From assembly GCA_963575745.1 (NCBI GenBank), contig CAUYUJ010000001.1:1736001-1800000 (forward strand): a DNA stretch of 64,000 nucleotides. The letters run 5' to 3'. This document shows, piece after piece, positions 5,686 to 61,435 of this stretch. Below the pieces are notes generated by a model. That model worked only from the letters and a program-made list of their open reading frames with translations, ran no database searches and had not been told where the DNA came from. The translations under genes were made by a program, and so were the position numbers. This DNA is from Prorocentrum cordatum (lineage: Eukaryota). The stretch's first letter is position 1, and each line of letters starts with the position of its first letter.

Positions 5686-5751
5686 CTTGAGCCAAAATGG
5701 CTCAAGCCATTTTGACTCAAACCATTTTGGCTCAAGCAATTTTGGCTCAAG
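5686..5751 (+). other. Stacked relict dinoflagellate spliced leaders: one inverted copy plus three tandem 15-nt relics
   Basis: 5686-5702 is the reverse complement of AGCCATTTTGGCTCAAG. It is followed by CCATTTTGACTCAAA (5707), CCATTTTGGCTCAAG (5722) and CAATTTTGGCTCAAG (5737), matching the DinoSL 3' 15-mer CCATTTTGGCTCAAG. Confidence 0.93.
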
Positions 5752-39847: not shown

Positions 39848-40860
39848 ATGGTGCGCAGTGGGAAAGGCGCATTGGTCGTGCGGCGCGGTGTGGGGACGAT
39901 CACAGCGCCCACGATCGAGGCGGCGGCCGCCTTGCTGCTGCTGCTGCTGCTGCTGCAGGCGGGGGCGCCGAGCAGCCCGCAGCCGGCGGCGAGGGCCGAG
40001 CGCGCGCTGGCGGGCGAGGACTCGGGGAGGCTTGGGCTGAGCAGCCGAGCGCAACGGCTGCTGGGCATAGCCGCGGAGTTGGTCGCCCTCTTTGGCGAGA
40101 CCACCCTCGCCAAGGGCTTGGCCAGGCTCCGCGACGCCGGGCGGCGGCCCCCGGCCCACCTTGAGCGCGCCTGGCGGGAGCTGGATGCGGTCAGCAGGCT
40201 CCTGAGGCACCCTGGGGAGGGTGAGCGTGCGCTGCAGGAGGCGCTCTGCTGGTTCGACTGCGGGGGCGACGCAGGGTCCAGCGAGCCCACGTGCACCACG
40301 GCGGGCCTCGACGTAGACTCACCCGCGGAGGGCTCGCAGGCGGCGCGCGACATCGAGGAGAGCAGCATGACGGAAAAGCAGAACGGCTTCGAGGGCATCG
40401 CGGGGTCTTGCGACCTCGGCTCCACCGACCTCGAGGAGGCGGCGGAGCTGGAGGGCGTGCACGACCTCGGCAGCGCCACCGAGGCCGTGATCTTCGACTG
40501 CGCTGACGCGGAGGGCCAGGAAGGCTTCGACCTGACGGAGTTCCAGGGCCTCGGCGAGAAGGAGACCGATGCCAGCAGGGCGGCCGTGGGGACGCTGGCT
40601 GGGGCATCGGCGGCGGGGGGTCTGTCGGCGGCTACGGCGGCTGGGGCATCGGCGACAGTGGTGGTGGCGGCGATTCCAGCTGTGGCTGTTGACGTGCTGG
40701 CGGCCCACATGGAGGCCGAGTGCGACGCGACGGAGGCGGACGACGACGACGTGTTCCACGACGCGGGGGAGGTCGTGCAGGACCCCCACGGCGTCGTCGA
40801 CGCCGAGGCGGACGCGAAGGCCACGCTTGGAGCGTGCTTGGCGGACCTCGCGGTTGATGC
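39848..40860 (+). pseudogene. LINE C ORF1, 5' part; continues in frame at 43486-43135 (-) if the inversion is undone
   Basis: MVRSGKG...WRELDAVSRLLRHPG...acidic region...LADLAVDA, joining VLVEYARSERWW...QGRKR* on re-inversion. Confidence 0.7.
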
Positions 40861-41700
40861 GCGCGACTTCCCGATGCCGCCGCAGAGTCGTCGGCGCACC
40901 AGAAAGCTTTGCCCCGCTTGCGTGGTACCAGGTGCGCGTGCATGTCCGTCACGAAGGGGTCCGCCGCCATCGCGAACGCCGAGCCGCTGGCAGGGTCTCC
41001 CTGCAGCACGCCACATCGGCACGCGAAGAGTACGCAGCCCGCAGCCGCCACCACGTAGGTGGCGACGTACTGCATCTGCAGCACACTCAGCAGCCCGAGC
41101 GGCACCCCCCACTTCCGCATGACGGCCCAGAGCCAGGTGTGCATCGCTGAAGGGAAGGCCTGCTTGAAGCCAAAGCTAAACGCCCACGGACGGAGGGGCC
41201 GCAGGGCGCCGCGATCAGCCGCGGCGGCAGCCCTCAGCAGGGCACCGGCGGCCAGTGACCTTGGGGCCCCTTCGGCGGCGTTGCGAAGGTCACCGACCCC
41301 CCGGGTCGGCTCGGGGCAGGCACGCTCAGGAAGCAGGGGATGGCAAGGTCTGAGAGCGTTCACACGGTCACTGGTGACGTCATCGTCAACCTCGTCCTGG
41401 TCAATCAGCGCGATCAGGGAGAGGTCCCGGATCAGCGAGTCGAACTCGACGAGGTTGCGCGCGGGGACCCGGCCAGGTACGAATCCCTGTTGCGGCGGTG
41501 CCGCCTCCGCCGCCACCGTGCGCCGCAGTGCGCAGTTCACCACCGCGGTGATGGCCTTCATGGATGGATGTGTTGCGCAGCGCCAGCGGCCGAGTATCCG
41601 CAGGTGCGCGGATGACCCTTTCGTCGCCGTCGGCGTCCTTGCCCCCCTTCGGCGGGAACACGCCGATGGCCCTGCTCGAGTCGGCGTACGAGTCGGCGTA
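40856..41700 (-). pseudogene. LINE C reverse transcriptase core (inside the inversion)
   Basis: FPPKG...TRPLALRNT, QQGFVPGR...NLVEFD, FKQAFPS..H.WLW.V, GVLQGDPASGSAF, CADD. Confidence 0.9.
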
Positions 41701-43491
41701 GGAGGAGGAGGAGGAGGAGGAGGAGGAGGAGGAGGAGGAGGAGGAGGAGGAGGAGGAGGAGGAGGAGGAGGAGGAGGAGGAGGAGGAGGAGGAGGAGGAT
41801 GAGGAGGAGGAGGAGGAGGAGGAGGGAGAGAGGTGACAGGAGAAGCGTGAACAGCGGATACAGCACCTCCCTCGTATGAAGAGCGGATGCGCATGCCATC
41901 CAAACCGCGTGCCCAAGCCCCCTCGCCCCTGCTTCCTCGTTCTCGTCCACCTTTTTCTCCTCCCTGTCCTCCCTCCCTCCCTAACACTCCCTCTCCCCCT
42001 CGCCTCCTCCTCCTCCTTCTCCTCCTGCTCCTGCTCCTGTTCCTTCTCCTCCTCCTGCTTATGTGGTGCGTACTTGTCCTTATCCTGTCCCATGTATCCC
42101 TCTCCCTCCGACTCTCTCTCTCTCTCTCTTTCTCTCTTTCTCTTCTTACTCTGCCCCCCTCAGAACGCCCGGGACTCTGCTCGCTGGCGTCATGGCCGCA
42201 AGTTGAATTCTGATATGTGGAGATTTCGACGACCCTGGCGCATTGGGCGAGGCGCAACAATACCCGACGGAGGACCGACCCAACCCTACAGCAGGTACAT
42301 ACGATAAGCAGTTTTCCTCTGGGGCCCATGTGGGGACGGTCGCTGAGTTTCCTGACATGCGCTAAGGCTTCTTTTGCGGGCCCCCGTGGCCACCGAAGGA
42401 TGAGAACAATCCGATTGGCGCCTGCTGGAAGGTTTGTCTCTTAATTGATGCAACTACTGTACGCAGCTTCGCGCAGCGCACGGCGTGACCCTGACGTTGT
42501 AGACTGCGCGCCGTAGGGCGGTGTGGACAGGAGGCTGCGGAGCCAGTGCCAGGTGGGGCGTGTGTTCTCCCCGATCCCAGCGAGCATGGTTTTATGATGC
42601 GACCGGTCTAGGAAGCGTTCTGGAGCACGTGTCGGCCCTCCGATCTCACTCCCTCGCACAACCCTCGGCGCGGCAGCGGCAAGGTCGAGGCCCAGCCGCT
42701 GGCGCGCAGCGCCGTCCCGGGGAGGCACGGGCGCCTCTCGCACCCAGCCCGCCCATCAGGGCGGCCAGCTCGCAAGCCACGCCGCCACGGCACTCATCGC
42801 CTCGGACGAGTAGCCCGACGGAGCCTGCCAGGACCACGCGGCGACGAGGACCCAAGACAGGGCACCGACAGGAGCGAGCGCCTTCCGAGACCCGCATGGG
42901 TCTCGGAAGCCACACGCCCCACCCCCGCGGGGAGGGCCCGACCCACCCAAGAGCCCAGACAAGAGACCCCAAACAACACCCTGGAAACCAAGGAGAGGTT
43001 TCCAGAGTGCGCCCCGGGACGGCCCCGAACCCGACCAAGAAACACGAGCCGAGTCCAGCAGGAGCGCACGTCTCCGAGCGCAGCTCACAGGCCGCCAGAC
43101 GCCTCGCGGCGCCGCACCAAAATGGGCGAGCAGGTCAGCGCTTCCGCCCCTGCCGCGGCGAGGCCTTCAGCTTCCGCCGCTCCCTTGAAGCCAGCTCCTT
43201 GCTCATGGCGTCCTCCGCCGCGCGCAAGTCGCCGTCGGCCTCGGGGACCTCGAAGCCAAAGTCCGCCAAGGAGCCCCTGGCGTTGGCGAACCACTCGTCC
43301 GCGGTGCCGACCGTCTTCAGGAAGGAGGGCGGCACGGTGGCCACAGCCCTCCGTCGTGCCGCAGCGCGGACCCGCTCCTCCTTCTGGATCGACGATCCAC
43401 CCGCCGTCCCTACTGTCATCCGCCTCTGGAGGCGCCTCCCCCGCAGCTCCCACCATCGCTCCGAGCGGGCGTACTCGACCAGGACGGCATC

Positions 43492-50000: not shown

Positions 50001-51134
50001 ACGCCGAGCTCGCGCAACAACAAGCGGGTTAACTGCGCAGAGCGCTTATTGACAGGAGAAGTGCGAGCAGCAGGCGCACTTCGGCGCGGTCCAGGCCGAC
50101 GGGGGAGGAATGTGTGCAGGAGCCTGCTATTGTGGAGCACCCAGCAACGGTCCGCGAAAGCAGACAAGTGCCCAGCAACTGGCTACAACCTAAGGTACAA
50201 CGCCTACGACGCCGACCCAACGTATGCCGTGTAACATGTGGCCCGCAAACCCACGCGCCTAGCGGGGCTCGGTGGGCCAGAACTATCAGCGCGCATCGTC
50301 GCCAAGCCCAACATAAGCAGATGTACGCATGAGCCTGGAGCCCACCCACCATTGCTCCGGGCGCAACGATGGCGGCGCATGGCGAAGCATCGCAAATCGC
50401 AGCAGCCAAGAACTGCGAGGTCAACAATATATTGGCGGCGCCATTGTCTGAAGTTATCAGGATGAGATGGGCGGCAGCACCATCGACGGAAGCGCGGCAA
50501 ATAGAGGGGGCATTCTCCGCGTTCTACGCGCCACTCGACGCGCGTGAACTTCGGGCGCAGCGCGGGCCGCATGGCCCACCACCATATCGGTCAGGCTGAC
50601 CACGGGGCCAGATCAAGCCAGCGCTCACAGCGCCACGACCTCCTGTCGGTGCACCATAACGACTAACGGGGGCGAGTCAGCCAATCGCGCGGCCCACATA
50701 ACTCGGCGCATGCCCCCTGATGGGCTCTACCTCAAGTCGATGTTGAGCTACTTCTGCCAGGGGTTCCCGCGCGCTCGACCTGAGAGGGGGGGGGGGGGGG
50801 GGGCTGCCCCCTTCCAGCCGACCGCGCAAGCGAACGGAGCGACCATCGCCGAGCAAATTAGGCTACCGAGGAAACCCACATACTTACCAGGGGTCTTGCG
50901 TGGTGATAGGTGACGCGAAACTTGCGAATATGTTGACGGTGGCCATCGCTTCGCCAATACCGAAGGCGGCGCGGTTCAAGCTTAGGCTGCCTGCCGCGCC
51001 GCGCCAACAGGAACGATTACAACGCCAGAGGGAAGCTGAGGTTGCCAAGCGTCGCATAGGAAACGGCTCGCACGCCGCTGCTTCGACAGAACGGGATGGG
51101 GCAGGGGGGGCAGGAGGGATGCAGGAGGCGTTCT

Positions 51135-51387
51135 CGCCACGCCTGCTAGGCCCTCAGAAATTGGCGCGTATAGAGACCGCGGTGAGAGACCACCCTTGCG
51201 CACCCCGTGTGACGTCGACAAGGTGCCACGCCTGCTAGGCCCTGCGGCATCTGGCGCGTATAGAGGCCGCGGTGGGAGACCACCCCCTGCGCACCCCCTC
51301 TGGCGTCGAGCATGTGCCACGCCTGCTCGGCCTTGCGACATTGGCGCGTATAGAGACCGCGGTGAGAGACTACCCCCCTGCGCACCC
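51135..51387. repeat. ~90-bp tandem repeat interrupted by the LTR element; resumes at 59961
   Basis: GCGTATAGAGACCGCGGTGAGAGACCACCC...GCGCACCC x3; the unit continues as CACCCTCCCTGGTGTCGAGAAAATGTCACGCCTGCTCGGCCTTG after the 3' LTR. Confidence 0.85.
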
Positions 51388-51583
51388 TGTGAATGGAACC
51401 CGTGTAATACCCTCATATATACTCCTTATCCTTACCTCTCCCGCACCTGGCCGTTTGGGCTCAGGTACTGAGTTGGAGCGATCGTACCTTGATCGCTTGG
51501 GAGGGAAAGATATCCATCTATCCCTCCATCTCTCTACCAACGGATCAGGGGTTCTGTACCCTTGTACTTCAACCCCATACACA
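51388..51583 (+). repeat. 5' LTR
   Basis: TGTGAATGG...CCATACACA; TATATA at 51416. Confidence 0.96.
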
Positions 51584-51595
51584 GGCTATCAGCCC
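51584..51595 (+). promoter_or_regulatory. Putative primer-binding site GGCTATCAGCCC, resembling the half-tRNA-iMet type GGTTATG(A/G)GCCC
   Basis: Directly after the LTR CA; no TGG start; 10/12 match to the copia/Hemivirus-type internal tRNA PBS. Confidence 0.55.
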
Positions 51596-52039
51596 TTTAA
51601 AGCTCACCTTCGCCGACTCGACCGCGGTGACCTTGCATGCGAGCCTGATGGAGCCACTTCGGCGCATGCGCCGTAAGGGTTCCATTGGGGCTTCGCGTCC
51701 AAGCTCTCCCGCGGCCCGACGGCTCGGTGACGAGTTGGAGAGCATTAGTGCGGACTGTGTTGGTGTTCCAGATACCCCCCCCCCAGCTCCCAAGGACCCG
51801 AGGCGCGACTAGCTGCTGAACTTCGCCGCAGCGCCGCCCGCGGGGGGACAGGAGAAGGAGTAGGAACAGGAAGGAAGGAGTTTCACACGCCGACCTTCGA
51901 TCCTCCCTCCCCTTCCCCGTCGGGAGCAATCCCAACCGCGTCAGGCGAAAGCCTTACTGGTCTCGATACTCCAGGGCGCTTTCGCGCTAACCGCCGATGG
52001 ACCTCAGGTGCTGGGACCCCCAGCCCTGCGACCGCCCCT

Positions 52040-55000
52040 GTGGCGGAGCACGTAGCTACCTTCGAGGAACTCAGTAGACCAGTGTCGGCACAGCCACAGA
52101 CGCGGCACCCCAAGGTATCATCGGATGAGACACCACACACACATGGTCCGAGTCGCAGCTCGTCCGCGCGCAACCGCCGTGGAGCCCCAGGCCCATGCGG
52201 CGAAAGCAGGTCGAGCCCGCGCACTGCCTCTCAGAGGCCATGCACTCCCCGCGACAGGGGACACAGGGAAGCTGACGCTCCCCACCTCTCCATCTCAGAC
52301 GACCAGCTGGCGGAAACGTCCGCCGCAGGTGACATAGCTGAGCTCAGAGACCAGGTTGAAACCTTCGTGTCCAGCCAATACTCTGGACTACTACAGAGCG
52401 TTCAGACGAACGCCACCGACACTGCAGCCATACGCCGCGATCTTGACGGCGCCTTAGGGATCATCGATTCCAGGATCGCCGAAGATCGACGCATCATAGG
52501 AGAACTGCAGTACCAGGTTGATCGTGAGGTGTCACACTCAGGTGAACGAACGGCGATGGTCGAGAACCTGCGCAACTATCTCGCGCAGATGGAGCAACAA
52601 CTTGTGATCGTACGCGACACAGGCATTTCTGCGGTCAGGATTTTACATGATGAGATCCACGACCAGCTCCGCAACCGACCAACTCCAACCGAGGCCACAG
52701 ACCTTGGCGACGTTCAGTCTCAGATCAATGATCTTCGATCTTACCTAGACCACACTACGGCGACGCTTCGTACCGAAGCACACACAAACTCGTCGAACCT
52801 GATCGACATGTTGCAGCGTACTGAGAGAGTCATCACTCAAAGGCTTGATGCGACCAACGCTGTCGTGCAGCCACTCGCTAACCGGATCTCTGACATAGAG
52901 CAGCGTTTTCCTGGTGTACAGGACGCCCTGGCAGAGTTGCGTGTCGGACGAGCCCAGACTGATCAGCTGGATTCTCCTCCCACGGTTTACGATTTCGCCC
53001 GCCTCACTGACAGGTTGCAGGAGGTTGAGAAGGCGGCGGACCACACGCAGTTAGAGCTCTCCCAGGTTATTCATGAAAGAGATACTGAGAAGGTACGTGT
53101 AGAGAGTTACCTCGCACGTCTGGAAAGCGAGGTGGAGGCACAAAGCGCCCGTCTCCGAGCATACGAGCATCGACTTGATCGGTATTCACAACGGTCTCGG
53201 GATACTGACGAGTATACACGCCAAAAGGTGGGTCAAAAACAAGAAGACATGACGAGCTGGACGAATCAGCTGATCGACCACACTAACGACACCAACATTC
53301 ACCTTCGACCTGCAGCCGACCTGCTCAGGCCGACGGCAGCGTCCGCCGAAGCACCACAAGCTTCAGCAGGACAACAACGACGTACGTCCCCAGGAGCAGC
53401 CTCCGCGGCAGCTTCTGCACAGACACGTCATGTGTCTCCTGTGCGCACAGAACCAACCACCGACGGTGCACCGATACCCTCGCAGCCAGTGTCTGCGGTG
53501 TCGGTCCATACTACGACGCCTATCAAGGAGTCAGACACCGTCCGTGTACCTGTCTTGCCTAAGATCACGCAGCTGCTGGAGTGGCAGCAAAGAGTGCGAA
53601 AGAATTTCGGGGCCGCCTCAGGGCGACCATCCAAAGCATACGCCTTCCTATGCGTGGCAGAACAGCCCGAATGTACATTCGAGGATTTACAAGACAGTGC
53701 AGACTTTGAGAGCATCGATTGCAAACTCGCAACCGCTCTGAGCGACATCTTATCCTCAGACTTACGCTACCAAATCAGGCTCATCGAGACCAGAGAGCAC
53801 AAAGCAGGACACATGCTCAAAGGACGCCAGATATACTGGCATATCCTACAGTCCTACAAAGTGACAGACGTTGACGACGATCTGCACGATTTCGAGCGCC
53901 TTAAAGAACTGAGGATGAGAGATGAAGATTTGCAACGATTCGCTACCGATTGGGACGCCTTACTCTTGGAATGCCGAGAAGTACCCGATCCAAAGATATT
54001 GGAATCGCTATTTCGCACACAGATTCGTAGACATGCATGGATGAAACAAGACATGTACGAGTATCAGCGCATGAAGATGAGCGGCCCGAATCGTACCTAC
54101 GGTTGGCTTCGGCAGCGTGTCCTGGACATACTGGAGATTAAACAATTGGAGAAGAATCAAAACAAGCTACGGTACGAACATGAGACACGATCTCAGGTCA
54201 ACGTGTGCGCTGCATGGAAGAAAGGCAATTGTCGCAACGGTGAACGGTGCAAGGCTTTACATACATATTCCAGGGATTGGAAGACCAACAAATCTTCCAG
54301 AACATCAGCGGCTGGTGGCAACCCCCGCCGTAGCATGTCCACTCCTGCGAATCACAAGAAGCCGGCATCAAAGCCATTATGCTTCGATTTTGCCAAGCGC
54401 AACACATGTACCAGAGGTGATAAGTGTAACTTCCCACACGTCGCACAGTGCAAGGATTTCGCACAGAACAAGTGCACAAAAGGCGACAAATGCAAATGCG
54501 CTCATCTCGCACCTGGTGCAAAGACTCCTGAACGAAGCCCGAGTCGGCCACGGACTTCCAGCCGGGACAGCCGTGGCCGATCACCATCCCGCGGATCAGG
54601 AAGCCAACGGTCTTCACAACGCGGGGGGTTTCGCTACGCAAGCGATTCACGACAGGGACGTGACAACCGACGCCAATACGACCGATCCCGTTCGACATCC
54701 AGGAGGTCCCAAGACTCTCGCAGCCAATCGAGAAGTCGTTACGACAGATCTTCGAGATCTACCTCCCGAGGACGAGACAATCGTGGCGGCGGACGCGGCA
54801 GTCCACGCGGCCGTGATAGATCATATGGTAGTGACAAAGGACGTGGCAAGCGGTATCCGAGCCGCGGATCGTCCCGTGGTTCTCCCAACACTAGAGCACG
54901 TTCTCCTGCCAACTTTAGACGTTCACGCCGTTCAGACCGCAGTTGCGTCATCCGTGACAAGACCCTCATGGCCAACACTAAGGCCACAGCGACATCTACC

Positions 55001-57103
55001 AAGACACGTCGTCGGATACGCTTCGACGTACGCAACGTGGACTACTACTTCCATACCATATCTGGCAGAGCCAGACTGGACAGATGGAAAGAGCTGCCGA
55101 ATGAGGGTGACATCGTCAAAGTACCAGATCCATTACCACAAAAATGGTGGGATGATAGTGCAGAGGCCTTACGAGAATGTCAAAAAGAGGCACAACTATG
55201 GTACGACGAACTATACGACTACCGACACAACAAAGAGTCGGTGGCCACACCAACTGCGATCCGAAAGCATGACGACACTGTCAAGCAGTCATCAAAGACT
55301 GACCAGACGACGACAACGACAAAGCAAGTCGACCCTCCACGTTCGACTGCAGCATTCACAAGGTCTTGGGTTCTTGACAGTGGTTCTGCCAATCATATTC
55401 AGGGAACCCATGAACTTACGCAGACCGAGTCGGATCGCATATCTATTCGCGAAGAGCATATTCTGGAAACTGCAAATGGTGATCGCACCGTCAACGAGCA
55501 CTACGACATACGGCTACCCGAGGTTGGACTGCATAGTTCAGCCCTTGCTTTACCAGACTGTCCATCATTACTATCAGTTGGAAAATTGATTGAGGTTGAT
55601 GGCTTTCGACAGCTTTGGGATCCTGGGCTGGGCTACATACTTCAGGATCCGGGGGGCCAATGGTATAAGATTCCAGTCAACAATCGAGTGCCAGAGTTAC
55701 GACTCGACGACTTAACACGGATACCACCACCACGTTTATGCACTTCGTCAGCACCCCGCCGTCGTCAGCGAAAGCGTTCATCCGCCCGCTGTAACGACGC
55801 TTGTTGGTGCTGCAAAACTACAGAGCAACCAACCACTGCAGACGAGCTACGGCCCCACATAGGGACCTGCCCCAAGAGACCACATGTCGGAGAGGGAGGA
55901 GGAGCACGGACCATCACGGTCGAAGAACCTCCCGACACAAGCACAGACGAGCCCAACGTGGACACAACCACCGACTCGCCTACGTCTCAGACGCAGTGTT
56001 CTCCTCCACAATGCGGGGGGTTAGATATAGCTCAAGCAGACAACGACATACCGACAGAGACACCCACACGAACGCATCCAGACAACGATCGAGTTCTACC
56101 CAACAGACAAAAGAAACCGATCGACCCGATGCATTACATGACTCACAGCCCAAAACATCCTGACTGTGAGATCTGTTCTCGTACGATGGCACAGAATGCA
56201 CCGTGTAGACGACAGCGCAAACCACATCCACCGGCAGACCCCACCGAAGAGGATAACGCCTACGAGGCTTTTGTCCCGAAGAAGTTCGGCGAGGCTCTAA
56301 CTGCCGACCATATCGTACTTGCCAAAGACGATGCCGCGGACAAACATGGCGACAAATATGCACTTGTTGCCCTTGGCAAATATACTGGCATCTTCATGGC
56401 CTACCCAGCGCTACACAAAGACGCAGCTACTACAAAGGCATCCTTTCAACAGTTCATCGCCGCGAACGATGAGGTGAAGCATATCTACACAGACAACTCT
56501 GGAGAGCTTCAGAAAGCTTGCCGCCAACTGGGATGGAGACGCGACACGAGTAGGCCACATCGTCCACAGACAAATGGATCGATTGAGCGCGTTGTCAAAA
56601 TTGTCATTCTCGGTACCAGAGCTGTGTTACATATGTCTGGTCTGGGACACGAATGGTGGAAAGAGGCCATGCAAGCCTTTTGCTGTGGACACAACTTTGT
56701 GCAGACATCCAGGGGCGTCGCTGCCCTCAACGAGGAGCACGCAGAAAAGACAGCTCATGCAATAAGATTTGGCGAAAGCTTTCCTGGGCACTGCATACCA
56801 TTCGGTGCTCGGATATTTTGGAAATGCCTCAACCCCGAGATTAACAACGAGACTGCAAAGTTTAAAGAAAATACTCGGGAAGGGTTATTCATGGGATACC
56901 ACTTACACTCTGGTGGACGATGGTCAGGTGACTACCTTGTTTTGGACACGGCTACGTACGCCAAGAATCCTGATGGTGAACTGTGTCATGTGCACAGAGT
57001 CAAAGACATCATCATCCCTGATGGCAAGTTCACCTACCCCGTGAAAGATGGTACCCTCCGACATCACAACCCGGAGGCACACGACGAGAGTCATACCAAT
57101 TGA
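52040..57103 (+). CDS. Gag-protease-integrase polyprotein (coiled coil, capsid-like region, 3x CCCH, RS-rich region, aspartic protease, HHCC-DDE integrase)
   Basis: Uninterrupted 1687-codon frame; the start is uncertain, first in-frame ATG at 52556. CCCH fingers at ~54205-54505; WVLDSGSANH, LETANG, LLSVGKL; HYMTHSPKHPDCEIC; TADH, YTDNSGEL, PQTNGSIER; IPFGA...GLFMGY. Confidence 0.93.
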   Translation: MAEHVATFEELSRPVSAQPQTRHPKVSSDETPHTHGPSRSSSARNRRGAPGPCGESRSSPRTASQRPCTPRDRGHREADAPHLSISDDQLAETSAAGDIAELRDQVETFVSSQYSGLLQSVQTNATDTAAIRRDLDGALGIIDSRIAEDRRIIGELQYQVDREVSHSGERTAMVENLRNYLAQMEQQLVIVRDTGISAVRILHDEIHDQLRNRPTPTEATDLGDVQSQINDLRSYLDHTTATLRTEAHTNSSNLIDMLQRTERVITQRLDATNAVVQPLANRISDIEQRFPGVQDALAELRVGRAQTDQLDSPPTVYDFARLTDRLQEVEKAADHTQLELSQVIHERDTEKVRVESYLARLESEVEAQSARLRAYEHRLDRYSQRSRDTDEYTRQKVGQKQEDMTSWTNQLIDHTNDTNIHLRPAADLLRPTAASAEAPQASAGQQRRTSPGAASAAASAQTRHVSPVRTEPTTDGAPIPSQPVSAVSVHTTTPIKESDTVRVPVLPKITQLLEWQQRVRKNFGAASGRPSKAYAFLCVAEQPECTFEDLQDSADFESIDCKLATALSDILSSDLRYQIRLIETREHKAGHMLKGRQIYWHILQSYKVTDVDDDLHDFERLKELRMRDEDLQRFATDWDALLLECREVPDPKILESLFRTQIRRHAWMKQDMYEYQRMKMSGPNRTYGWLRQRVLDILEIKQLEKNQNKLRYEHETRSQVNVCAAWKKGNCRNGERCKALHTYSRDWKTNKSSRTSAAGGNPRRSMSTPANHKKPASKPLCFDFAKRNTCTRGDKCNFPHVAQCKDFAQNKCTKGDKCKCAHLAPGAKTPERSPSRPRTSSRDSRGRSPSRGSGSQRSSQRGGFRYASDSRQGRDNRRQYDRSRSTSRRSQDSRSQSRSRYDRSSRSTSRGRDNRGGGRGSPRGRDRSYGSDKGRGKRYPSRGSSRGSPNTRARSPANFRRSRRSDRSCVIRDKTLMANTKATATSTKTRRRIRFDVRNVDYYFHTISGRARLDRWKELPNEGDIVKVPDPLPQKWWDDSAEALRECQKEAQLWYDELYDYRHNKESVATPTAIRKHDDTVKQSSKTDQTTTTTKQVDPPRSTAAFTRSWVLDSGSANHIQGTHELTQTESDRISIREEHILETANGDRTVNEHYDIRLPEVGLHSSALALPDCPSLLSVGKLIEVDGFRQLWDPGLGYILQDPGGQWYKIPVNNRVPELRLDDLTRIPPPRLCTSSAPRRRQRKRSSARCNDACWCCKTTEQPTTADELRPHIGTCPKRPHVGEGGGARTITVEEPPDTSTDEPNVDTTTDSPTSQTQCSPPQCGGLDIAQADNDIPTETPTRTHPDNDRVLPNRQKKPIDPMHYMTHSPKHPDCEICSRTMAQNAPCRRQRKPHPPADPTEEDNAYEAFVPKKFGEALTADHIVLAKDDAADKHGDKYALVALGKYTGIFMAYPALHKDAATTKASFQQFIAANDEVKHIYTDNSGELQKACRQLGWRRDTSRPHRPQTNGSIERVVKIVILGTRAVLHMSGLGHEWWKEAMQAFCCGHNFVQTSRGVAALNEEHAEKTAHAIRFGESFPGHCIPFGARIFWKCLNPEINNETAKFKENTREGLFMGYHLHSGGRWSGDYLVLDTATYAKNPDGELCHVHRVKDIIIPDGKFTYPVKDGTLRHHNPEAHDESHTN

Positions 57104-59010
57104 ATTACAATCATACCCACAAGTGGGCACGTGACTTACCTAATTGTGGTGCAGATCATTTCTTCAAAAAGTTGGTGCACTACCTCGACCCAGAAACTAT
57201 CGAGGAGTCGACCACAGGCATCTTTCAATGGATTTCCAAAGTATACCAGCACATCTTGAAAGATAGTATTGCGGAGCTTCCAGATTTCGCCAAAGAGGCC
57301 ATCCATGAGAACCATCCTGCACTTCAGGCATTGCGTGACCTATTCAAAAATTGTACTGTGACATACGCTAATCCAGATTTTTCTGCATGGGAAGAGCTGG
57401 TGGAAACACCTGCTGCGCCTCGAGAGCAAGGCGCTGAGCAGGATATTCCCCAGGACCCAGGCAGCGTTGCGTCTGCAGCTCCCGATCAGGAAACTATGGT
57501 ACGTATCATAGCCGAGCAGACGGGACTCAAGCGCGAGGAGGGCGACAACGAGGCTACCTTGCAGGAGCAGGCTCGCCGTCTTCGTGAGGAGAACGTATGC
57601 CATGGCGGTACTGAGGATACCGACAACATCAAGATAGAGTACAAAGAACTGCCAGGGGAAAGGTTGTCTCGGATCGAGATCGAGGGTTTAAGCAGATCGA
57701 TCGCTTCCAGACCGAACGCCGAGATCAATCGTGAGGCGATCAATCAGATCGGTCAGAACCTCGCTCGCGGTCAGGACACCCGCTGGGGATCCCGCGATCA
57801 CCTGACTTCGGCTGGGGCCCCCGAGACGATCTTGCATCCCATACCGCTCTGTCAGAATTGCGGTCGAGATCTGCCCCTCGGGATTGTCACAGGTGACGGC
57901 GCACTTTGCGATATCTGTTGGCAATACACTGTGGCCGTAGGCGCCACAGGCAAGAGCACCGCCACACAGAGCGACTTCGCGTACCTGCAGAAATTGACGA
58001 ACTGGATCAAGACGACGTTGTCTGAGGATCAAATCGCGAGATACATGAAGGATGGTGCGCACGTCATTATGACGGGTGCGCGATCGCACATAGGCAGCGA
58101 GAAAGATCAGTTGCGGAGATTGGCCAATGCGTCCAAAAAGAGGTATCAGAAGTGGGTCGAAGCCGGTAGCCCGCCTGCACACGAGTGCAGATTAATGGGC
58201 GGATCCGAGGACGACCGGCCTCTGTATTACCCATTCGCCAATCTCATACAACGCTTTCTCAACGACCTCAAGTTTCATCATCAGATGACAGGTGCCCGCG
58301 TGAATGTCGGCAAGAAGCCCTGGACCGTCGAGGACATGCGCGACGCGTGGGACATCCTTGACGTCAGCATTAGGACAGGACAGGCTGGTCGGAGAAAGTG
58401 GTGGCTGAACGAGGGGCGCATTGACAGGCAGACGCGGCAGGCGCGCGGACTGGTTACGGTTTCTCTCCCTCGAAGGGACGGAACCCGTGAACAGTTCACC
58501 CAGCGCAAGCTTGCCGCGATCGCCAACGAACTGATGGGCTCCCTCGATCCGTCACACACCGACCAGAGGGGGGTTAGTACAGGGATGAGAACCGATCCCG
58601 ATACACAATCCCAACAGTCCGATGACGCCATGGAGCCGCGGCCGCCGCCGCGCCCGCCGCCGCGCCCTGCTCCTGGCGACGCTGCTGCGTCCAGCGCCTC
58701 AGGCGCGGAGGACTACACGCCCGCGATGCCGCGCGCCAAGAGAGCACGTACATCTGATTACGCTGCTTATTGGCGCCACGACCTCGAGGACAGCTACTGG
58801 GGTCTTCGATACTGGAGTTACTACATCAAATGTTGGATCTACATCGCGATCAACAACGACGAGTATGTGTACATCCAGGATATCACGTACAACGACTGGT
58901 TCCGCAACTGGATCCCGAGGACAACTTGGGAAACGTTTACGACAAGCTACGCGACGTACAACGGCCAGAGGGTGTGGGACCGCAGGTTCTACAAGGACGG
59001 CGACGCGTAG
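57100..59010 (+). CDS. Unknown 636-aa ORF inside the LTR element (CxxC...CxxC, W/Y-rich C-terminus)
   Basis: Long open frame in non-repetitive sequence, in the -1 frame overlapping the Gag-IN stop. Contains CQNC-x15-CDIC. No YVDD or RNase H motifs. Confidence 0.75.
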   Translation: MNYNHTHKWARDLPNCGADHFFKKLVHYLDPETIEESTTGIFQWISKVYQHILKDSIAELPDFAKEAIHENHPALQALRDLFKNCTVTYANPDFSAWEELVETPAAPREQGAEQDIPQDPGSVASAAPDQETMVRIIAEQTGLKREEGDNEATLQEQARRLREENVCHGGTEDTDNIKIEYKELPGERLSRIEIEGLSRSIASRPNAEINREAINQIGQNLARGQDTRWGSRDHLTSAGAPETILHPIPLCQNCGRDLPLGIVTGDGALCDICWQYTVAVGATGKSTATQSDFAYLQKLTNWIKTTLSEDQIARYMKDGAHVIMTGARSHIGSEKDQLRRLANASKKRYQKWVEAGSPPAHECRLMGGSEDDRPLYYPFANLIQRFLNDLKFHHQMTGARVNVGKKPWTVEDMRDAWDILDVSIRTGQAGRRKWWLNEGRIDRQTRQARGLVTVSLPRRDGTREQFTQRKLAAIANELMGSLDPSHTDQRGVSTGMRTDPDTQSQQSDDAMEPRPPPRPPPRPAPGDAAASSASGAEDYTPAMPRAKRARTSDYAAYWRHDLEDSYWGLRYWSYYIKCWIYIAINNDEYVYIQDITYNDWFRNWIPRTTWETFTTSYATYNGQRVWDRRFYKDGDA

Positions 59011-59754
59011 TGAGTCGGCCGCAAGGCCCACTGCTCAAGAGCGAAACTTCCTTTCATCAAAGTTCGCCTTGAGCGGTGGCTAATATATTCTTTTAGGCCA
59101 CTTCAATCATTCACACAAGTGGCCATACACAAACATATATATCTTTTGCGATCACCGAGGCAGCCTCCTAAGGAGCAACGCCAACGGGAGTCGCCAAACA
59201 GACTTTTTATACATCCCTTTCCGTGTTCATGAACACGACATTTTGTCTGGCCAGACACTTGCTTTACGCAGATTTGCGTTTCTTTTCAGGATCGCGTTCG
59301 TCAACACGATCTTAGCATACATTTGTTTCTTAGGCAGACTTGTGTTTCACTTCAAGATTGTGTTCGTCAACGCGATGTTAGCATGCATATTTTAACAATT
59401 TGAACAATATTGCGTCGAGAATAATCTGCAAGTTGGTGGCAACACCTGCCTCGCAAATCTTGCGAGGCAGATTGCATGTTGCCTTAATGCTCAGATCTTC
59501 TTTCTCCGCCTACCCTTGTCTCATTCTTCTCCTCCCTCGAGTGCCGAAGCGTTTTTGGGGGGCGCACCGAGGGGGCGCCAAAATGCGCCTGGAGAAGAAA
59601 GGGGGACTTAGGGCATCTCTTCTTACCTCACTTTGCAGCTGTGGCTTCGCTGATTTTAAGCCCCAGCTGCCTTTCTGACTTAAGGACTAAAGGAGTTCAG
59701 AGGTTACGGATTCCTTTCCTCTGTTCCCGAGTCCTGCCTTAACGGGCGGGATTC

Positions 59755-59765
59755 GGGACGGGGGG
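59755..59765 (+). promoter_or_regulatory. Polypurine tract GGGACGGGGGG
   Basis: Immediately precedes the TG of the 3' LTR. Confidence 0.8.
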
Positions 59766-59960
59766 TGTGAATGGAACCCGTGTAATACCCTCATATATAC
59801 TCCTTATCCTTACCTCTCCCGCACCTGGCCGTTTGGGCTCAGGTACTGAGTTGGAGCGATCGTACTTTGATCGCTTGGGAGGGAAGATATCCATCTATCC
59901 CTCCATCTCTCTACCAACGGATCAGGGTTTCTGTACCCTTGTACTTCAACCCCATACACA
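59766..59960 (+). repeat. 3' LTR
   Basis: Near-identical to 51388-51583. Confidence 0.96.
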
Positions 59961-60339
59961 CACCCTCCCTGGTGTCGAGAAAATGTCACGCCTGCTCGGC
60001 CTTGGAACATGCGTCGTTTATGTATCGTGCTGCATGTGTATGTGTTGGATGCGCGTGGGGCCGTCTTGGGACGCGTGACCATATGGATGCTCAGTGTGTT
60101 GTGCATACCTCTTGGGTGTACGACGCAGTGAACACGCCAGGCGTGCACTAGCGTTGTTGTGCATACCTCTTGGGTGTAGGATGCAGTGAACGCGCCAGGC
60201 GTGCACTAGCGTTGTTGGTGTGTGTGTGCGTGTGTGTGTATGTGTGTGAGTGTGTGTGAGTGTGTATGTATGTGTGTGCGTGCGCGTGCGCACGCACGCC
60301 AGACGTGCGTGTTGCGCGTGGGTGCAGGAGGACGGAGCG

Positions 60340-61435
60340 TGAGGGACCACCTATCTGCGCACCCCCTGTGGCATGGAAAGGACCAAGGAGCGCGTGGGTG
60401 CAGGACCAAGGAGCGTGGAAAAGTGTCGCGCCTACCACGCCCCGCGGCCCTGAGACGGATAGAGACCGCTGTGGGGGACCACCCGCTGCGCACCCCGTAT
60501 GTCGTGGAGAAAGTGTCACTGCCACGCCAGCCACGCCCCGCGACCCTGAGACGGATAGAGACCACGGTGAAGGACCACCGGATGTGCACCCATTGTGGCG
60601 GGGAGAAAGTGCCGCCCCTGGCACGCCCCGCGAACCTGAGACGGATAGAGACCGTGGTGAAGGACCCCACCCCCCTGGTCACCCTTGTGGCGTGGAGAAA
60701 GTGCCGCGCCTGCCACGCCCCACGACCCTGAGACGGATAGAGACCGCGGTGACCCCCTTATGGTGTCGAGAAGATGCCGCGCCTGCCACGCCTCGCGACC
60801 CTGAGACGGATAGGGACCCAGGTGAGGGACCACCCCTTGCGCACCCTCTATGGTGTCGAGAAAGTGCCGCCCCTGGTATGCCCCGCGACCCTGAGACGGA
60901 TAGGGACCACGGTGAGGGACCCCATCCCCTTGTTCACCCCTTTGGCGTGGAGAAAGTGCCGCGCCTGCCACGGCCCGCGACCCTGAGACGGATAGGGACC
61001 ACGGTGAGGGACCCCATCCCTTTGTTCACCCCTTTGGTGTGGAGAAAGTGCCGCGCCTGCCACGCCCCGCGACCCTGAGACGGATAGGGACCACGGTGAG
61101 GGACCCCCCCCCTGCGCACCCCGTTTGGTGTCGAGAAGGTGCCGCGCTTGGCACGCCTGGCGACCCTGAGACGGATAGGGACCACGGTGAGGGACCACCC
61201 CTTGCGCACCCTCTACGGTGTCGAGAAAATGCCACGCTTGCCACGCCTTGCGACCTTGAGACGGATAGAGACCACGGTGAGGGACCACCGCCTGCGCACC
61301 CCCTATGGTGTCGAGAAAGTGCCACGCCAGCCACGCCTTGCGACCCTGAGACGGATAGAGAACACGGTAAAGGACCTTCCTCTGCGCACCCCCCGTGGTG
61401 TTGAGAAGGTGCCACGCCTGCCACGCCTTGCGAAT
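60340..61435. repeat. Tandem satellite, 90-92-bp unit, ~11-12 diverged copies, same family as 51135-51387
   Basis: CTGAGACGGATAG recurs at ~60801, 60891, 60983, 61075, 61166, 61346. Confidence 0.92.

What the first reader, a model, noticed from the sequence alone, without database searches (positions are those of the whole stretch)
51388..59960. Young Copia-type element with intact Gag-PR-IN but no RT/RNase H, carrying an unknown 636-aa ORF instead
Seen: LTRs differ at only 3 of ~196 positions; perfect TSD, PBS-like site and PPT; two long uninterrupted ORFs. Where RT-RH should follow integrase, a different protein begins in the -1 frame (CxxC-x15-CxxC, Pro-rich linker, W/Y-rich tail). Established: the Copia order is Gag-PR-IN-RT-RH, and dinoflagellate retrotransposons can carry extra domains. 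Inference: this is either an RT-less family that borrows RT in trans while carrying cargo, or an internal deletion that fused IN to a normally downstream accessory region.
Basis: partly seen in the sequence, partly recalled or inferred. Interest (0 to 1): 0.72.

Follow-up and report, generated by a model that had tools for sequence, protein, structure and literature searches.

The report
RT-less Copia element with orphan ORF
A young jumping gene in a dinoflagellate genome keeps its capsid-like, protease and integrase genes but has no reverse transcriptase, carrying instead a conserved protein of unknown fold, so it probably copies itself with an enzyme borrowed from a related element.

Summary
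Window 51388-59960 is an LTR element with 196/195-nt LTRs (2 substitutions, 1 indel), TG..CA ends, a 5-bp target duplication (CACCC) and a polypurine tract, inserted into a ~90-nt satellite. ORF1 (1687 codons) carries three CCCH fingers, a D-S-G protease and an integrase. Its one database relative is a Copia-order polyprotein with RVT_2. No reverse transcriptase or RNase H appears in any of 87 frames of 50 codons or more.

ORF2 (636 codons, -1 frame) is a real protein family: 50 database relatives at 20-78% identity tile its whole length, and five end at the same C-terminus. It matches no Pfam family, no solved-structure sequence and no known fold, and is not a recognisable divergent RT.

The element is not a one-off. 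Contigs of four public runs cover it 248 to 15,726 times at 85-100% identity, and the best-supported indels all lie outside both ORFs.

Best reading (0.6): a multi-copy, semi-autonomous Copia-type family, probably born by deletion or recombination near 57088, that supplies its own Gag-like protein, protease and integrase and borrows RT/RNase H in trans. Not shown: the partner element, how ORF2 is translated (no ATG, no slippery site) and what ORF2 does. New variant of a known kind; interest moderate.

The parts
51383..51387 (.). left copy of the 5-bp target-site duplication (CACCC)
   Evidence: identical to 59961-59965
51388..51583 (+). 5' LTR, 196 nt, TGTG...CACA
   Evidence: 98.5% identical to the 3' LTR
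51450..51465 (+). worn spliced-leader-like block inside the LTR (13 of 16 bases), followed by GT; repeated at 59828-59843
   Evidence: motif recalled from memory, not from a tool
51584..51595 (+). PBS-like site directly after the 5' LTR
   Evidence: position only, no tRNA available to test complementarity
52040..57103 (+). ORF1, 1687 codons: Gag-like region, protease, integrase. Frame open from 51749; first in-frame ATG at 52556
54185..54514 (+). three CCCH zinc fingers (nucleocapsid-like position), followed by an Arg/Ser-rich stretch
   Evidence: zf-CCCH E 2.3e-08, above the curated cut-off; P0003 has the same finger
55367..55648 (+). aspartic protease region with the D-S-G motif (aa 1113-1115)
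   Evidence: aligns with the protease region of P0003 (E 1e-04, single comparison); motif read
56132..57046 (+). integrase: HHCC-type finger, D/D/E residues in place (D-x30-E, as in P0003), C-terminal part
   Evidence: rve E 1.8e-04, below the curated cut-off; E 1.9e-16 to P0003; 25% identity over 314 columns, E 2e-21
57022..57103 (+). overlap of ORF1 with the open -1 frame of ORF2. ORF1 stop TGA at 57101-57103 overlaps the TTG at 57100. A related element diverges at 57088 in run X10
57100..59010 (+). ORF2, 636 codons, conserved orphan protein
57850..57918 (+). CxxC-x15-CxxC zinc-ribbon-like motif of ORF2 (aa 251-273)
   Evidence: both CxxC pairs kept in P0007 (P0009 and P0019 each changed one Cys), the second pair in P0014, a single CxxC in P0022, P0031, P0032 and P0045
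57955..58539 (+). central, mostly helical domain of ORF2 (aa 286-480)
   Evidence: conserved in 21 relatives; AF2 mean pLDDT 77; no known fold
58762..59007 (+). C-terminal W/Y-rich beta domain of ORF2 (aa 555-636), preceded by a Pro-rich linker and a basic PRAKRAR stretch
   Evidence: pLDDT about 90, beta strands; W558, R559, R570, Y571, W572 nearly invariant
59011..59765 (+). 3' untranslated region with a 2 x ~65-nt tandem (59264-59393), ending in the polypurine tract 59744-59765
   Evidence: 7 of the 12 listed indel polymorphisms fall here
59766..59960 (+). 3' LTR, 195 nt
59961..59965 (.). right copy of the target-site duplication (CACCC)

Best explanation
This is a recently inserted copy of a multi-copy, semi-autonomous Ty1/Copia-type LTR retrotransposon family of a dinoflagellate. 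It encodes its own Gag-like protein, protease and integrase but no reverse transcriptase or RNase H.

Proposed cycle:
- The RNA is transcribed from the 5' LTR and packaged by its own Gag-like protein (inferred).
- It is reverse-transcribed by RT/RNase H supplied in trans by a related autonomous Copia element whose polyprotein co-assembles (inferred, partner not seen).
- It is integrated by its own integrase. The 5-bp duplication and intact catalytic residues are shown; activity is inferred.

The family probably arose when a deletion or recombination near 57088 joined the 3' end of the integrase gene, out of frame, to a 5'-truncated copy of a conserved accessory gene (ORF2).

ORF2 is a real, old protein family with a zinc ribbon, a helical domain, a basic stretch and an aromatic beta domain. 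It has no known fold.

If ORF2 is made, it most likely arises as a C-terminal extension of integrase, by a non-canonical -1 shift or by re-initiation at the stop/TTG overlap. In that case I would guess a role in nuclear import or target choice.
For: Element anatomy and insertion:
- LTRs, TSD and PPT are confirmed.
- The insertion lies in a satellite unit, and contigs join the two flanks without the element (joints 512xx->5996x).

No RT or RNase H:
- None in ORF1, ORF2 or 87 frames.

Copia affinity:
- The only relative of the PR-IN part among 6261 scored candidates is a 2010-aa polyprotein with CCCH finger, protease, integrase and then RVT_2.

Multi-copy family:
- 15,726, 6,581, 1,087 and 248 contigs of runs X1, X2, X5 and X10 lie on 51000-60400 at 85% identity or more, spread over all identity classes.
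- All 30 bins are covered in three runs and 29 in the fourth.
- Summed depth falls about 30-fold beyond the right LTR bin in X1.
- 20 runs of 15 studies hold parts of 56000-59800.

Junction:
- No loose end at the junction is listed for X1, X2 or X5, although rows with only 1-5 contigs are listed for X1 and X2.

Constraint on the ORFs:
- Of the 12 listed indel places (of 49), 0 lie in 51388-59401.
- 7 lie in the 755-nt 3' UTR, 4 in the left flank and 1 in the right flank.
- If the 7 were spread evenly over ORF2 plus UTR, the chance that all fall in the UTR is about 1.5e-4 (my arithmetic).

ORF2 is a real family:
- 50 relatives, 26 at E<=1e-10, tile aa 1-636.
- Motifs are conserved and linkers variable.
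- P0010, P0029, P0035, P0041 and P0042 all end within 18 residues after the W..FY motif.

Chimera or deletion origin:
- Five relatives (P0026, P0027, P0038, P0039, P0051) extend 22-60 residues further N-terminal in ORF2's frame, with a shared motif absent from all three frames here.
- ORF2 has no ATG before aa 133.
- GC3 is 0.654 in ORF2 against 0.535 in ORF1 (p 3e-7) and 0.52 in the integrase part (p 8e-5).
- Three X10 contigs follow the integrase up to 57088 and then run into unlike sequence that stays open in ORF1's frame.

This copy decays neutrally, as a TE copy should:
- Of the 32 best-supported differences from the other contigs within the ORFs, 23 are non-synonymous and 9 synonymous.
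Against: - No RT-bearing partner with the same LTR was seen. The only hints are the X10 loose end and the roughly 3-fold higher summed depth over ORF1 than over ORF2. The tool warns that depth cannot rank parts of a gene.
- No contig was shown to bridge 57000-57200. Tables were truncated: 892 loose ends, 37 indels and 976 substitutions were not shown.
- ORF2 has no start codon and no canonical X XXY YYZ slippery site in 57022-57103 (read). The local RNA fold is ordinary (z -0.93). ORF2 may therefore be an untranslated passenger.
- ORF1 itself lacks an ATG for its first 172 codons.
- Whether the ORF2 relatives sit in LTR elements at all is unknown. They are short contigs without context.
- The indel depletion could partly reflect homopolymer runs in the UTR.
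Confidence: 0.6

Rival explanations
1. Same RT-less, trans-mobilised family, but ORF2 is an untranslated passenger. It would be the 5'-truncated remnant of an accessory gene of the parent element, still open only because the deletion derivative is young and expanded fast.
For: - There is no ATG before aa 133 of ORF2.
- ORF2 is out of frame with ORF1, without a canonical slippery site or a stable downstream structure.
- Relatives have an extra N-terminal segment missing here.
- This copy's own differences look neutral, 23 non-synonymous to 9 synonymous.
Against: - Contigs down to 85% identity cover ORF2, yet none of the 12 best-supported indels falls in its 1.9 kb while 7 fall in the adjacent 755-nt UTR.
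- Four relatives (P0005, P0015, P0021, P0030) start at aa 25-26 of ORF2, three of them at the same residue, and two more (P0004, P0053) start at aa 2-3. This suggests the same truncated arrangement is kept at 41-72% protein identity.
Confidence: 0.22
2. A private, post-insertion internal deletion of an ordinary autonomous Copia copy. The junction would be unique and the sister copies complete.
For: No contig was shown to bridge the junction, and in run X10 three contigs leave the element at 57088.
Against: - The ORF2 region is covered by many contigs in four runs at 85-100% identity.
- No loose end at 57088 is listed for X1, X2 or X5.
- A deletion after insertion would not explain an ORF2 family with a conserved own C-terminus and no RT after it in five relatives.
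- LTR identity of 98.5% leaves little time.
Confidence: 0.05
3. ORF2 is itself a very divergent polymerase (RT or other), so the element is autonomous.
For: One hhalign row put ORF2 aa 556-597 on the YVDD-box region of P0003's RVT_2 (VYIQDIT against VYVDDLT), with E 0.18 and probability 0.3%.
Against: - The match was not reproduced with the C-terminal sub-alignment: score 12.9, and 30% of 200 shuffles score as high.
- AF2 predicts beta strands where an RT has a helix.
- None of the 51 family members matches any RT family in Pfam.
- Foldseek found nothing at E<=0.001 and VIA-align gave best Z 4.7 and 4.4, with no polymerase among the 49-50 rows shown for each search.
- No motif A or B equivalents are present, and the domain order would be wrong.
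Confidence: 0.04
4. Assembly chimera: the integrase-ORF2 join is an artefact of assembling a repeat-rich genome.
For: The region is highly repeated and lies in satellite DNA, and bridging reads were not seen.
Against: - The element has a coherent structure: matching LTRs, a perfect TSD and a PPT.
- The integrase stop lies 12 nt after the proposed breakpoint.
- ORF2-frame similarity to relatives starts right at the junction.
- No loose end is listed there in the three best runs.
Confidence: 0.04

Closest known systems
Semi-autonomous / non-autonomous LTR retrotransposons with partial coding capacity: BARE-2 and Tos17 (lack Gag), TR-GAG (Gag only), LARDs
   Same: - They keep LTRs and priming sites, lack at least one essential protein, are multi-copy and depend on a partner.
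- Tos17 is described as a non-autonomous yet active Copia (PMC3977881, abstract read).
- Families keeping GAG/PROT or single POL domains are reported in sugar beet, and BARE-1/BARE-2 is cited as a pair (PMC13570524, passages read).
   Different: - Here the missing part is RT/RNase H alone, while the Gag-like region, protease and integrase look intact.
- The lost region is replaced by a long conserved ORF of unknown family, and the host is a dinoflagellate.
- The title and abstract listings of my two searches showed no such case. I did not open those papers beyond the three cited.
Ty1/Copia elements of dinoflagellates (SmTCL1-4 of Symbiodinium microadriaticum)
   Same: Copia order with integrase upstream of RT, LTRs and recent expansion (PMC5776459, passages read).
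   Different: All four SmTCLs have RT and RNase H. This element has neither.
Dinoflagellate retrotransposons with captured extra domains (SymbioLINE-Dnmt, SymbioDIRS-Dnmt3)
   Same: An additional conserved protein module is carried inside a retroelement and kept under selection (PMC5890265, passages read).
   Different: Those elements keep their RT, are LINE or DIRS type, and their module is a known enzyme (DNMT). Here RT is absent and the module has no known family.
P0003, a 2010-aa Copia-order polyprotein from a public assembly
   Same: CCCH finger, protease and integrase with the same D-x30-E spacing. It is 25% identical over the integrase.
   Different: P0003 has about 490 residues of spacer and then RVT_2. 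Neither BLASTP nor hhalign finds similarity to ORF2.

Membership tests
Ty1/Copia LTR retrotransposon | Direct LTRs with TG...CA ends | tested here: met
   196/195 nt, 3 differences, TGTG...CACA
Ty1/Copia LTR retrotransposon | 5-bp target-site duplication | tested here: met
   CACCC on both sides
Ty1/Copia LTR retrotransposon | PBS complementary to a tRNA next to the 5' LTR; PPT next to the 3' LTR | tested here: inconclusive
   The PPT is present. A PBS-like 12-mer is present, but no tRNA sequence was available to test it (0 tRNA genes in the window).
Ty1/Copia LTR retrotransposon | Domain order protease, then integrase, then RT/RNase H | tested here: not met
   Protease lies before integrase, but no RT or RNase H follows.
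Ty1/Copia LTR retrotransposon | RVT_2-type reverse transcriptase and RNase H | tested here: not met
   none in ORF1, ORF2 or 87 frames at E<=0.1
Ty1/Copia LTR retrotransposon | Integrase related to integrases of RVT_2-bearing elements | tested here: met
   single database hit P0003, E 1.9e-16, which carries RVT_2 after its integrase
Non-autonomous (semi-autonomous) LTR retrotransposon | Keeps cis signals but lacks an essential protein | tested here: met
Non-autonomous (semi-autonomous) LTR retrotransposon | Many copies sharing the defective structure | tested here: inconclusive
   hundreds to thousands of contigs cover all parts, and no loose end at the junction is listed in X1, X2 or X5. However, no bridging contig was shown and the tables were truncated.
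Non-autonomous (semi-autonomous) LTR retrotransposon | An autonomous partner with related LTR ends, PBS or Gag | not testable with these tools
   No whole genome is held. No related loci were found in the three collections. The only hint is the X10 loose end at 57088.
Reverse transcriptase (for ORF2) | RT family match or motifs A-C | tested here: not met
   0 of 51 members match an RT family; YVDD-like match not significant
Reverse transcriptase (for ORF2) | Palm/fingers fold | tested here: inconclusive
   no polymerase among the rows shown. The C-terminal domain was not folded and searched on its own.
Programmed -1 ribosomal frameshift | X XXY YYZ slippery heptamer in the overlap plus a downstream structure | tested here: not met
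   Reading of 57022-57103 finds no such heptamer. The fold of 57020-57200 has z -0.93.

The most novel reading that the evidence does not exclude
ORF2 defines a new, old retroelement accessory module: a zinc ribbon, a helical domain of unknown fold and an aromatic beta domain. It would be expressed as an extension of integrase. It would let an RT-less Copia lineage persist as a long-lived hyperparasite of autonomous Copia elements, for instance by steering nuclear import or target choice (this copy sits in a satellite) or by recruiting the partner's polymerase. In that case the family's divergence down to about 30% identity, with a conserved C-terminus, would be the record of an ancient RT-less clade rather than of a recent accident.
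Probability: 0.25. Interest if true: 0.75.

Novelty: new variant of a known kind. Interest (0 to 1): 0.5.

Why it matters
Non-autonomous LTR elements are usually seen as decaying shells. This one would show a division of labour: the element keeps everything except the polymerase and carries a conserved protein that no database can name.

If the family really amplifies without its own RT, it gives a natural system for asking which retrotransposon functions must act in cis. It would also show how dinoflagellate genomes, already known for retroelements with captured enzymes, build new element architectures.

The ORF2 family is a sizeable protein family of marine protists with no known fold or function.

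Tried and rejected
ORF2 as a relic RT:
- One hhalign row on the YVDD box (E 0.18) was not reproduced. 30% of 200 shuffles score as high.

Canonical -1 frameshift:
- There is no slippery heptamer and no unusual RNA structure.

Intron joining ORF1 to ORF2:
- It would need a length of 3n+2 within about 50 nt, which is too short (inference).

Relatives' N-terminal extension as the integrase C-terminus:
- By eye there is a V-x-D-I-like resemblance, but hhalign gives E 0.53 against ORF1's last 147 residues and 0.55 against P0003. Left open.

Function of ORF2, nothing found:
- Pfam for ORF2 and all 51 family members.
- PDB sequences with one protein and three profiles (best E 0.79).
- Foldseek on PDB and BFVD (none at E<=0.001).
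- VIA-align wide (best Z 4.7 and 4.4, on generic helices).
- ESM Atlas (no usable hit, best 0.85).

Word-based protein search for ORF2:
- None at near or longer lengths. This is weak evidence only.

Related DNA loci:
- Viral contigs, metagenome contigs and prokaryote genome contigs returned no confirmed locus.
- The context of the relatives is therefore unknown.

Other blanks:
- The whole genome is not held.
- No RNA holder was listed among the sequencing runs.
- Rfam found no family in 50500-61000.
- Earlier findings by place, by sequence and by relatives showed nothing for this element.
Full report
**Observation**

Window 51388-59960 is a complete LTR element.
- The two LTRs (51388-51583 and 59766-59960) are 196 and 195 nt. 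They differ by two substitutions and one single-base indel, and they begin TGTG and end CACA.
- The five bases CACCC flank the element on both sides.
- A purine-rich tract ends at the 3' LTR, and a PBS-like 12-mer follows the 5' LTR. I could not test the 12-mer against a tRNA because the window has none.
- This is the only copy in the window.
- It sits inside a ~90-nt satellite whose units continue on both sides. Contigs of public runs join the two flanks without the element (joints from about 51200-51301 to 59961-59972).
- The window is dinoflagellate DNA. The 21-nt spliced-leader motif, recalled from memory, occurs exactly at 19133-19153 and with one mismatch at 39716-39736, against 0 matches expected by chance.

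**Coding content**

ORF1 (52040-57103, 1687 codons) contains:
- three CCCH zinc fingers (Pfam zf-CCCH, E 2.3e-08);
- a D-S-G protease motif;
- an integrase core (rve, E 1.8e-04, below Pfam's cut-off).

A search of the PR-IN part scored 6261 candidates and found one relative, P0003 (E 1.9e-16). P0003 is a 2010-residue polyprotein with the same CCCH finger, protease and integrase, then about 490 residues of spacer and an RVT_2 reverse transcriptase. That is the Copia order.

Neither ORF1, ORF2 nor any of the 87 stop-to-stop frames of 50 codons or more on either strand matches an RT or RNase H family.

'Gag' is inferred from position only. ORF1's frame is open from 51749, but its first ATG is codon 173.

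**ORF2**

ORF2 (57100-59010, 636 codons) lies in the -1 frame and is open from 57022.

It is a genuine protein family.
- An exhaustive HMMER search found 50 relatives, 26 at E<=1e-10, at 20-78% identity to ORF2 in the alignment. Together they tile the whole length.
- Most are short fragments. Of the 20 I looked up, 12 carry the label of one EukProt data set, 7 come from ENA contigs of 800-1756 nt, and 1 comes from NCBI.
- I could not tell whether the EukProt set is a transcriptome, so I make no claim about expression.
- The alignments show conserved blocks separated by variable linkers. The blocks are an N-terminal domain, CxxC-x15-CxxC, a central helical domain and a W/Y-rich C-terminal domain.
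- Five relatives that reach the C-terminal domain all end within 18 residues of the same W..FY motif. The protein therefore ends there, and no RT follows in frame.
- One close relative (P0017) reads through the two stop codons for at least 12 more codons.

ORF2 has no recognisable family or fold.
- Pfam finds nothing for it or for any of the 51 family members.
- PDB sequence searches with the protein and with three profiles give nothing better than E 0.79.
- The AlphaFold model of the whole protein has mean pLDDT 62.7, with confident central and C-terminal parts. The central domain alone reaches 77.
- Foldseek finds no match at E<=0.001 in PDB or BFVD.
- VIA-align gives best Z of 4.7 and 4.4 on generic helices.
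- The ESM Atlas gave no usable hit.

**Is ORF2 a hidden RT?**

One hhalign row placed ORF2 aa 556-597 on the YVDD-box region of P0003 (E 0.18). With the C-terminal sub-alignment this match did not recur, and 30% of 200 shuffled targets scored as well. AlphaFold predicts strands where an RT has a helix. I reject this reading, with about 4% left.

**Is it a family or a one-off?**

No whole genome is held, so I used public runs.
- Twenty runs from 15 studies hold parts of 56000-59800.
- Laying the contigs of four runs on 51000-60400 at 85% identity or more placed 15,726, 6,581, 1,087 and 248 contigs. For X1 the identity classes were 4694 at 99% or more, 5587 at 95-99%, 4279 at 90-95% and 1166 under 90%.
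- Every one of the 30 bins was covered in three runs and 29 in the fourth.
- In X1, summed depth is 1661 in the bin holding the 3' LTR and 55 in the next flank bin.
- Summed depth over ORF1 is roughly three times that over ORF2. The tool warns that such depths cannot rank parts of a gene, so I treat this only as a hint that integrase-bearing relatives without ORF2 exist.
- Of the 49 indel places, 12 are listed. None lies between 51388 and 59401. Seven lie in the 755-nt 3' UTR, four in the left flank and one in the right flank. If the seven were spread evenly over ORF2 plus UTR, all seven falling in the UTR has a chance of about 1.5e-4 (my arithmetic). Homopolymer runs in the UTR may contribute.
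- The 32 best-supported substitutions inside the ORFs are mostly places where all other contigs disagree with this copy. They split 23 non-synonymous to 9 synonymous, which is what neutral decay of one inserted copy predicts.
- No loose end at the integrase/ORF2 junction is listed for X1, X2 or X5, although rows with as few as 1-5 contigs are listed for X1 and X2.
- In X10, three contigs follow the integrase to 57088 and then continue with unlike sequence that stays open in ORF1's frame.
- The tables were truncated (892 loose ends, 976 substitutions and 37 indels not shown) and only one such call was allowed. I therefore did not see a contig bridging 57000-57200.

**The junction**

- Similarity of ORF2's frame to its relatives runs without gaps from about 57073-57094 onward.
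- Five relatives (P0026, P0027, P0038, P0039, P0051) continue 22-60 residues further upstream in the same frame. They share a motif (S-Y-x-x-x-F-R-F-G) that is absent from all three frames here.
- Whether that upstream piece is an integrase C-terminus is unresolved (hhalign E 0.53 and 0.55).
- ORF2 has no ATG before residue 133. Its nominal TTG overlaps ORF1's TGA.
- The overlap has no X XXY YYZ heptamer (read), and the local RNA fold is ordinary (z -0.93).
- Codon usage differs between the ORFs. GC3 is 0.654 in ORF2, 0.535 in ORF1 (p 3e-7) and 0.52 in the integrase part (p 8e-5). It rises gradually along ORF2 rather than jumping at the junction.

Together with the X10 breakpoint, this points to an origin by deletion or recombination. 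That event would have joined the integrase 3' end, out of frame, to a 5'-truncated ORF2 module.

**Explanation**

I commit to a multi-copy, semi-autonomous Copia-type family that makes its own Gag-like protein, protease and integrase and depends on a related element for RT/RNase H (0.6).
- Shown: the anatomy, the absence of RT/RNase H, the Copia affinity of the integrase, the reality and conservation of the ORF2 family, and the multi-copy state.
- Inferred: trans-complementation, the deletion origin, and any expression or role of ORF2.

The main rival (0.22) differs only in taking ORF2 for an untranslated passenger. A private deletion, a hidden polymerase and an assembly join are each at or below 0.05.

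**Comparison with known elements**

- Partly coding non-autonomous LTR elements are known. Tos17 lacks gag yet transposes (PMC3977881, abstract read). [quoted passage not shown]
- Dinoflagellate Copia elements described so far have RT and RNase H (PMC5776459, passages read).
- Dinoflagellate LINE and DIRS elements with captured DNMTs keep their RT (PMC5890265, passages read).
- My two literature searches (listings only) showed no element that keeps Gag, protease and integrase, lacks only RT/RNase H, and carries a conserved orphan ORF. This is not proof that none is in print.

I rate it a new variant of a known kind, with interest 0.5.

Earlier notes of this scan on the same genome report other Copia families with extra domains and a spliced-leader-like block in Copia LTRs. 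I found such a block, 13 of 16 bases, in both LTRs here.

Noticed in passing
window 54081-55589 (+), inside ORF1: A 502-codon stop-free run lies in the +1 frame over the zinc-finger, Arg/Ser-rich and protease part of ORF1. In 1000 synonymous-codon shuffles of ORF1 the longest +1 run averaged 218 (sd 56, max 462), and none reached 502. There is no Pfam match. It may be an overprinted gene or a by-product of the Arg/Ser-rich codons.
   Followed up: partly
window 51450-51465 and 59828-59843: Both LTRs hold a 13-of-16 match to the 3' part of the dinoflagellate spliced leader, directly followed by GT. Earlier notes on this genome report the same in other Copia LTRs.
   Followed up: partly
window 12735-19153 (-): A LINE-like element lies on the minus strand: three long frames with an endonuclease/exonuclease/phosphatase domain (E 1.9e-06) and an RNase H domain (E 7.8e-05). 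An exact 21-nt spliced-leader copy sits about 80 nt upstream of the first frame, at 19133-19153. This suggests retroposition of a trans-spliced transcript.
   Followed up: no
window 5686-5751: A head-to-tail array of five to six spliced-leader-like 15-16-mers with 0-3 mismatches, on both strands at the first unit. It looks like a relic of repeated trans-splicing and retroposition.
   Followed up: no
window 39716-39736 (+) and 40635-42440 (-): A spliced-leader copy with one mismatch lies next to a 602-codon frame on the other strand with a weak RVT_1 match (E 0.0016, below cut-off).
   Followed up: no
window 51136-51392 and 60424-61000: A ~90-nt satellite flanks the element on both sides. It is extremely abundant in the runs laid: summed depth is about 26,000-37,000 in the first bin for X1 and X2. 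The element's target duplication lies within one unit.
   Followed up: partly
window 51749-52555: ORF1's frame is open for 269 codons upstream of its first ATG at 52556. Either translation starts at a non-ATG codon, or an upstream exon or spliced leader supplies the start, or this copy or family lost its start.
   Followed up: no
relatives P0005-P0009, P0011-P0015, P0017, P0027: Twelve of the 20 ORF2 relatives looked up carry the label of a single EukProt data set named for a green alga (Pyramimonas sp. CCMP1952), with peptide numbers in the millions. The window itself is dinoflagellate DNA. Contamination, mislabelling or shared elements cannot be told apart here.
   Followed up: no
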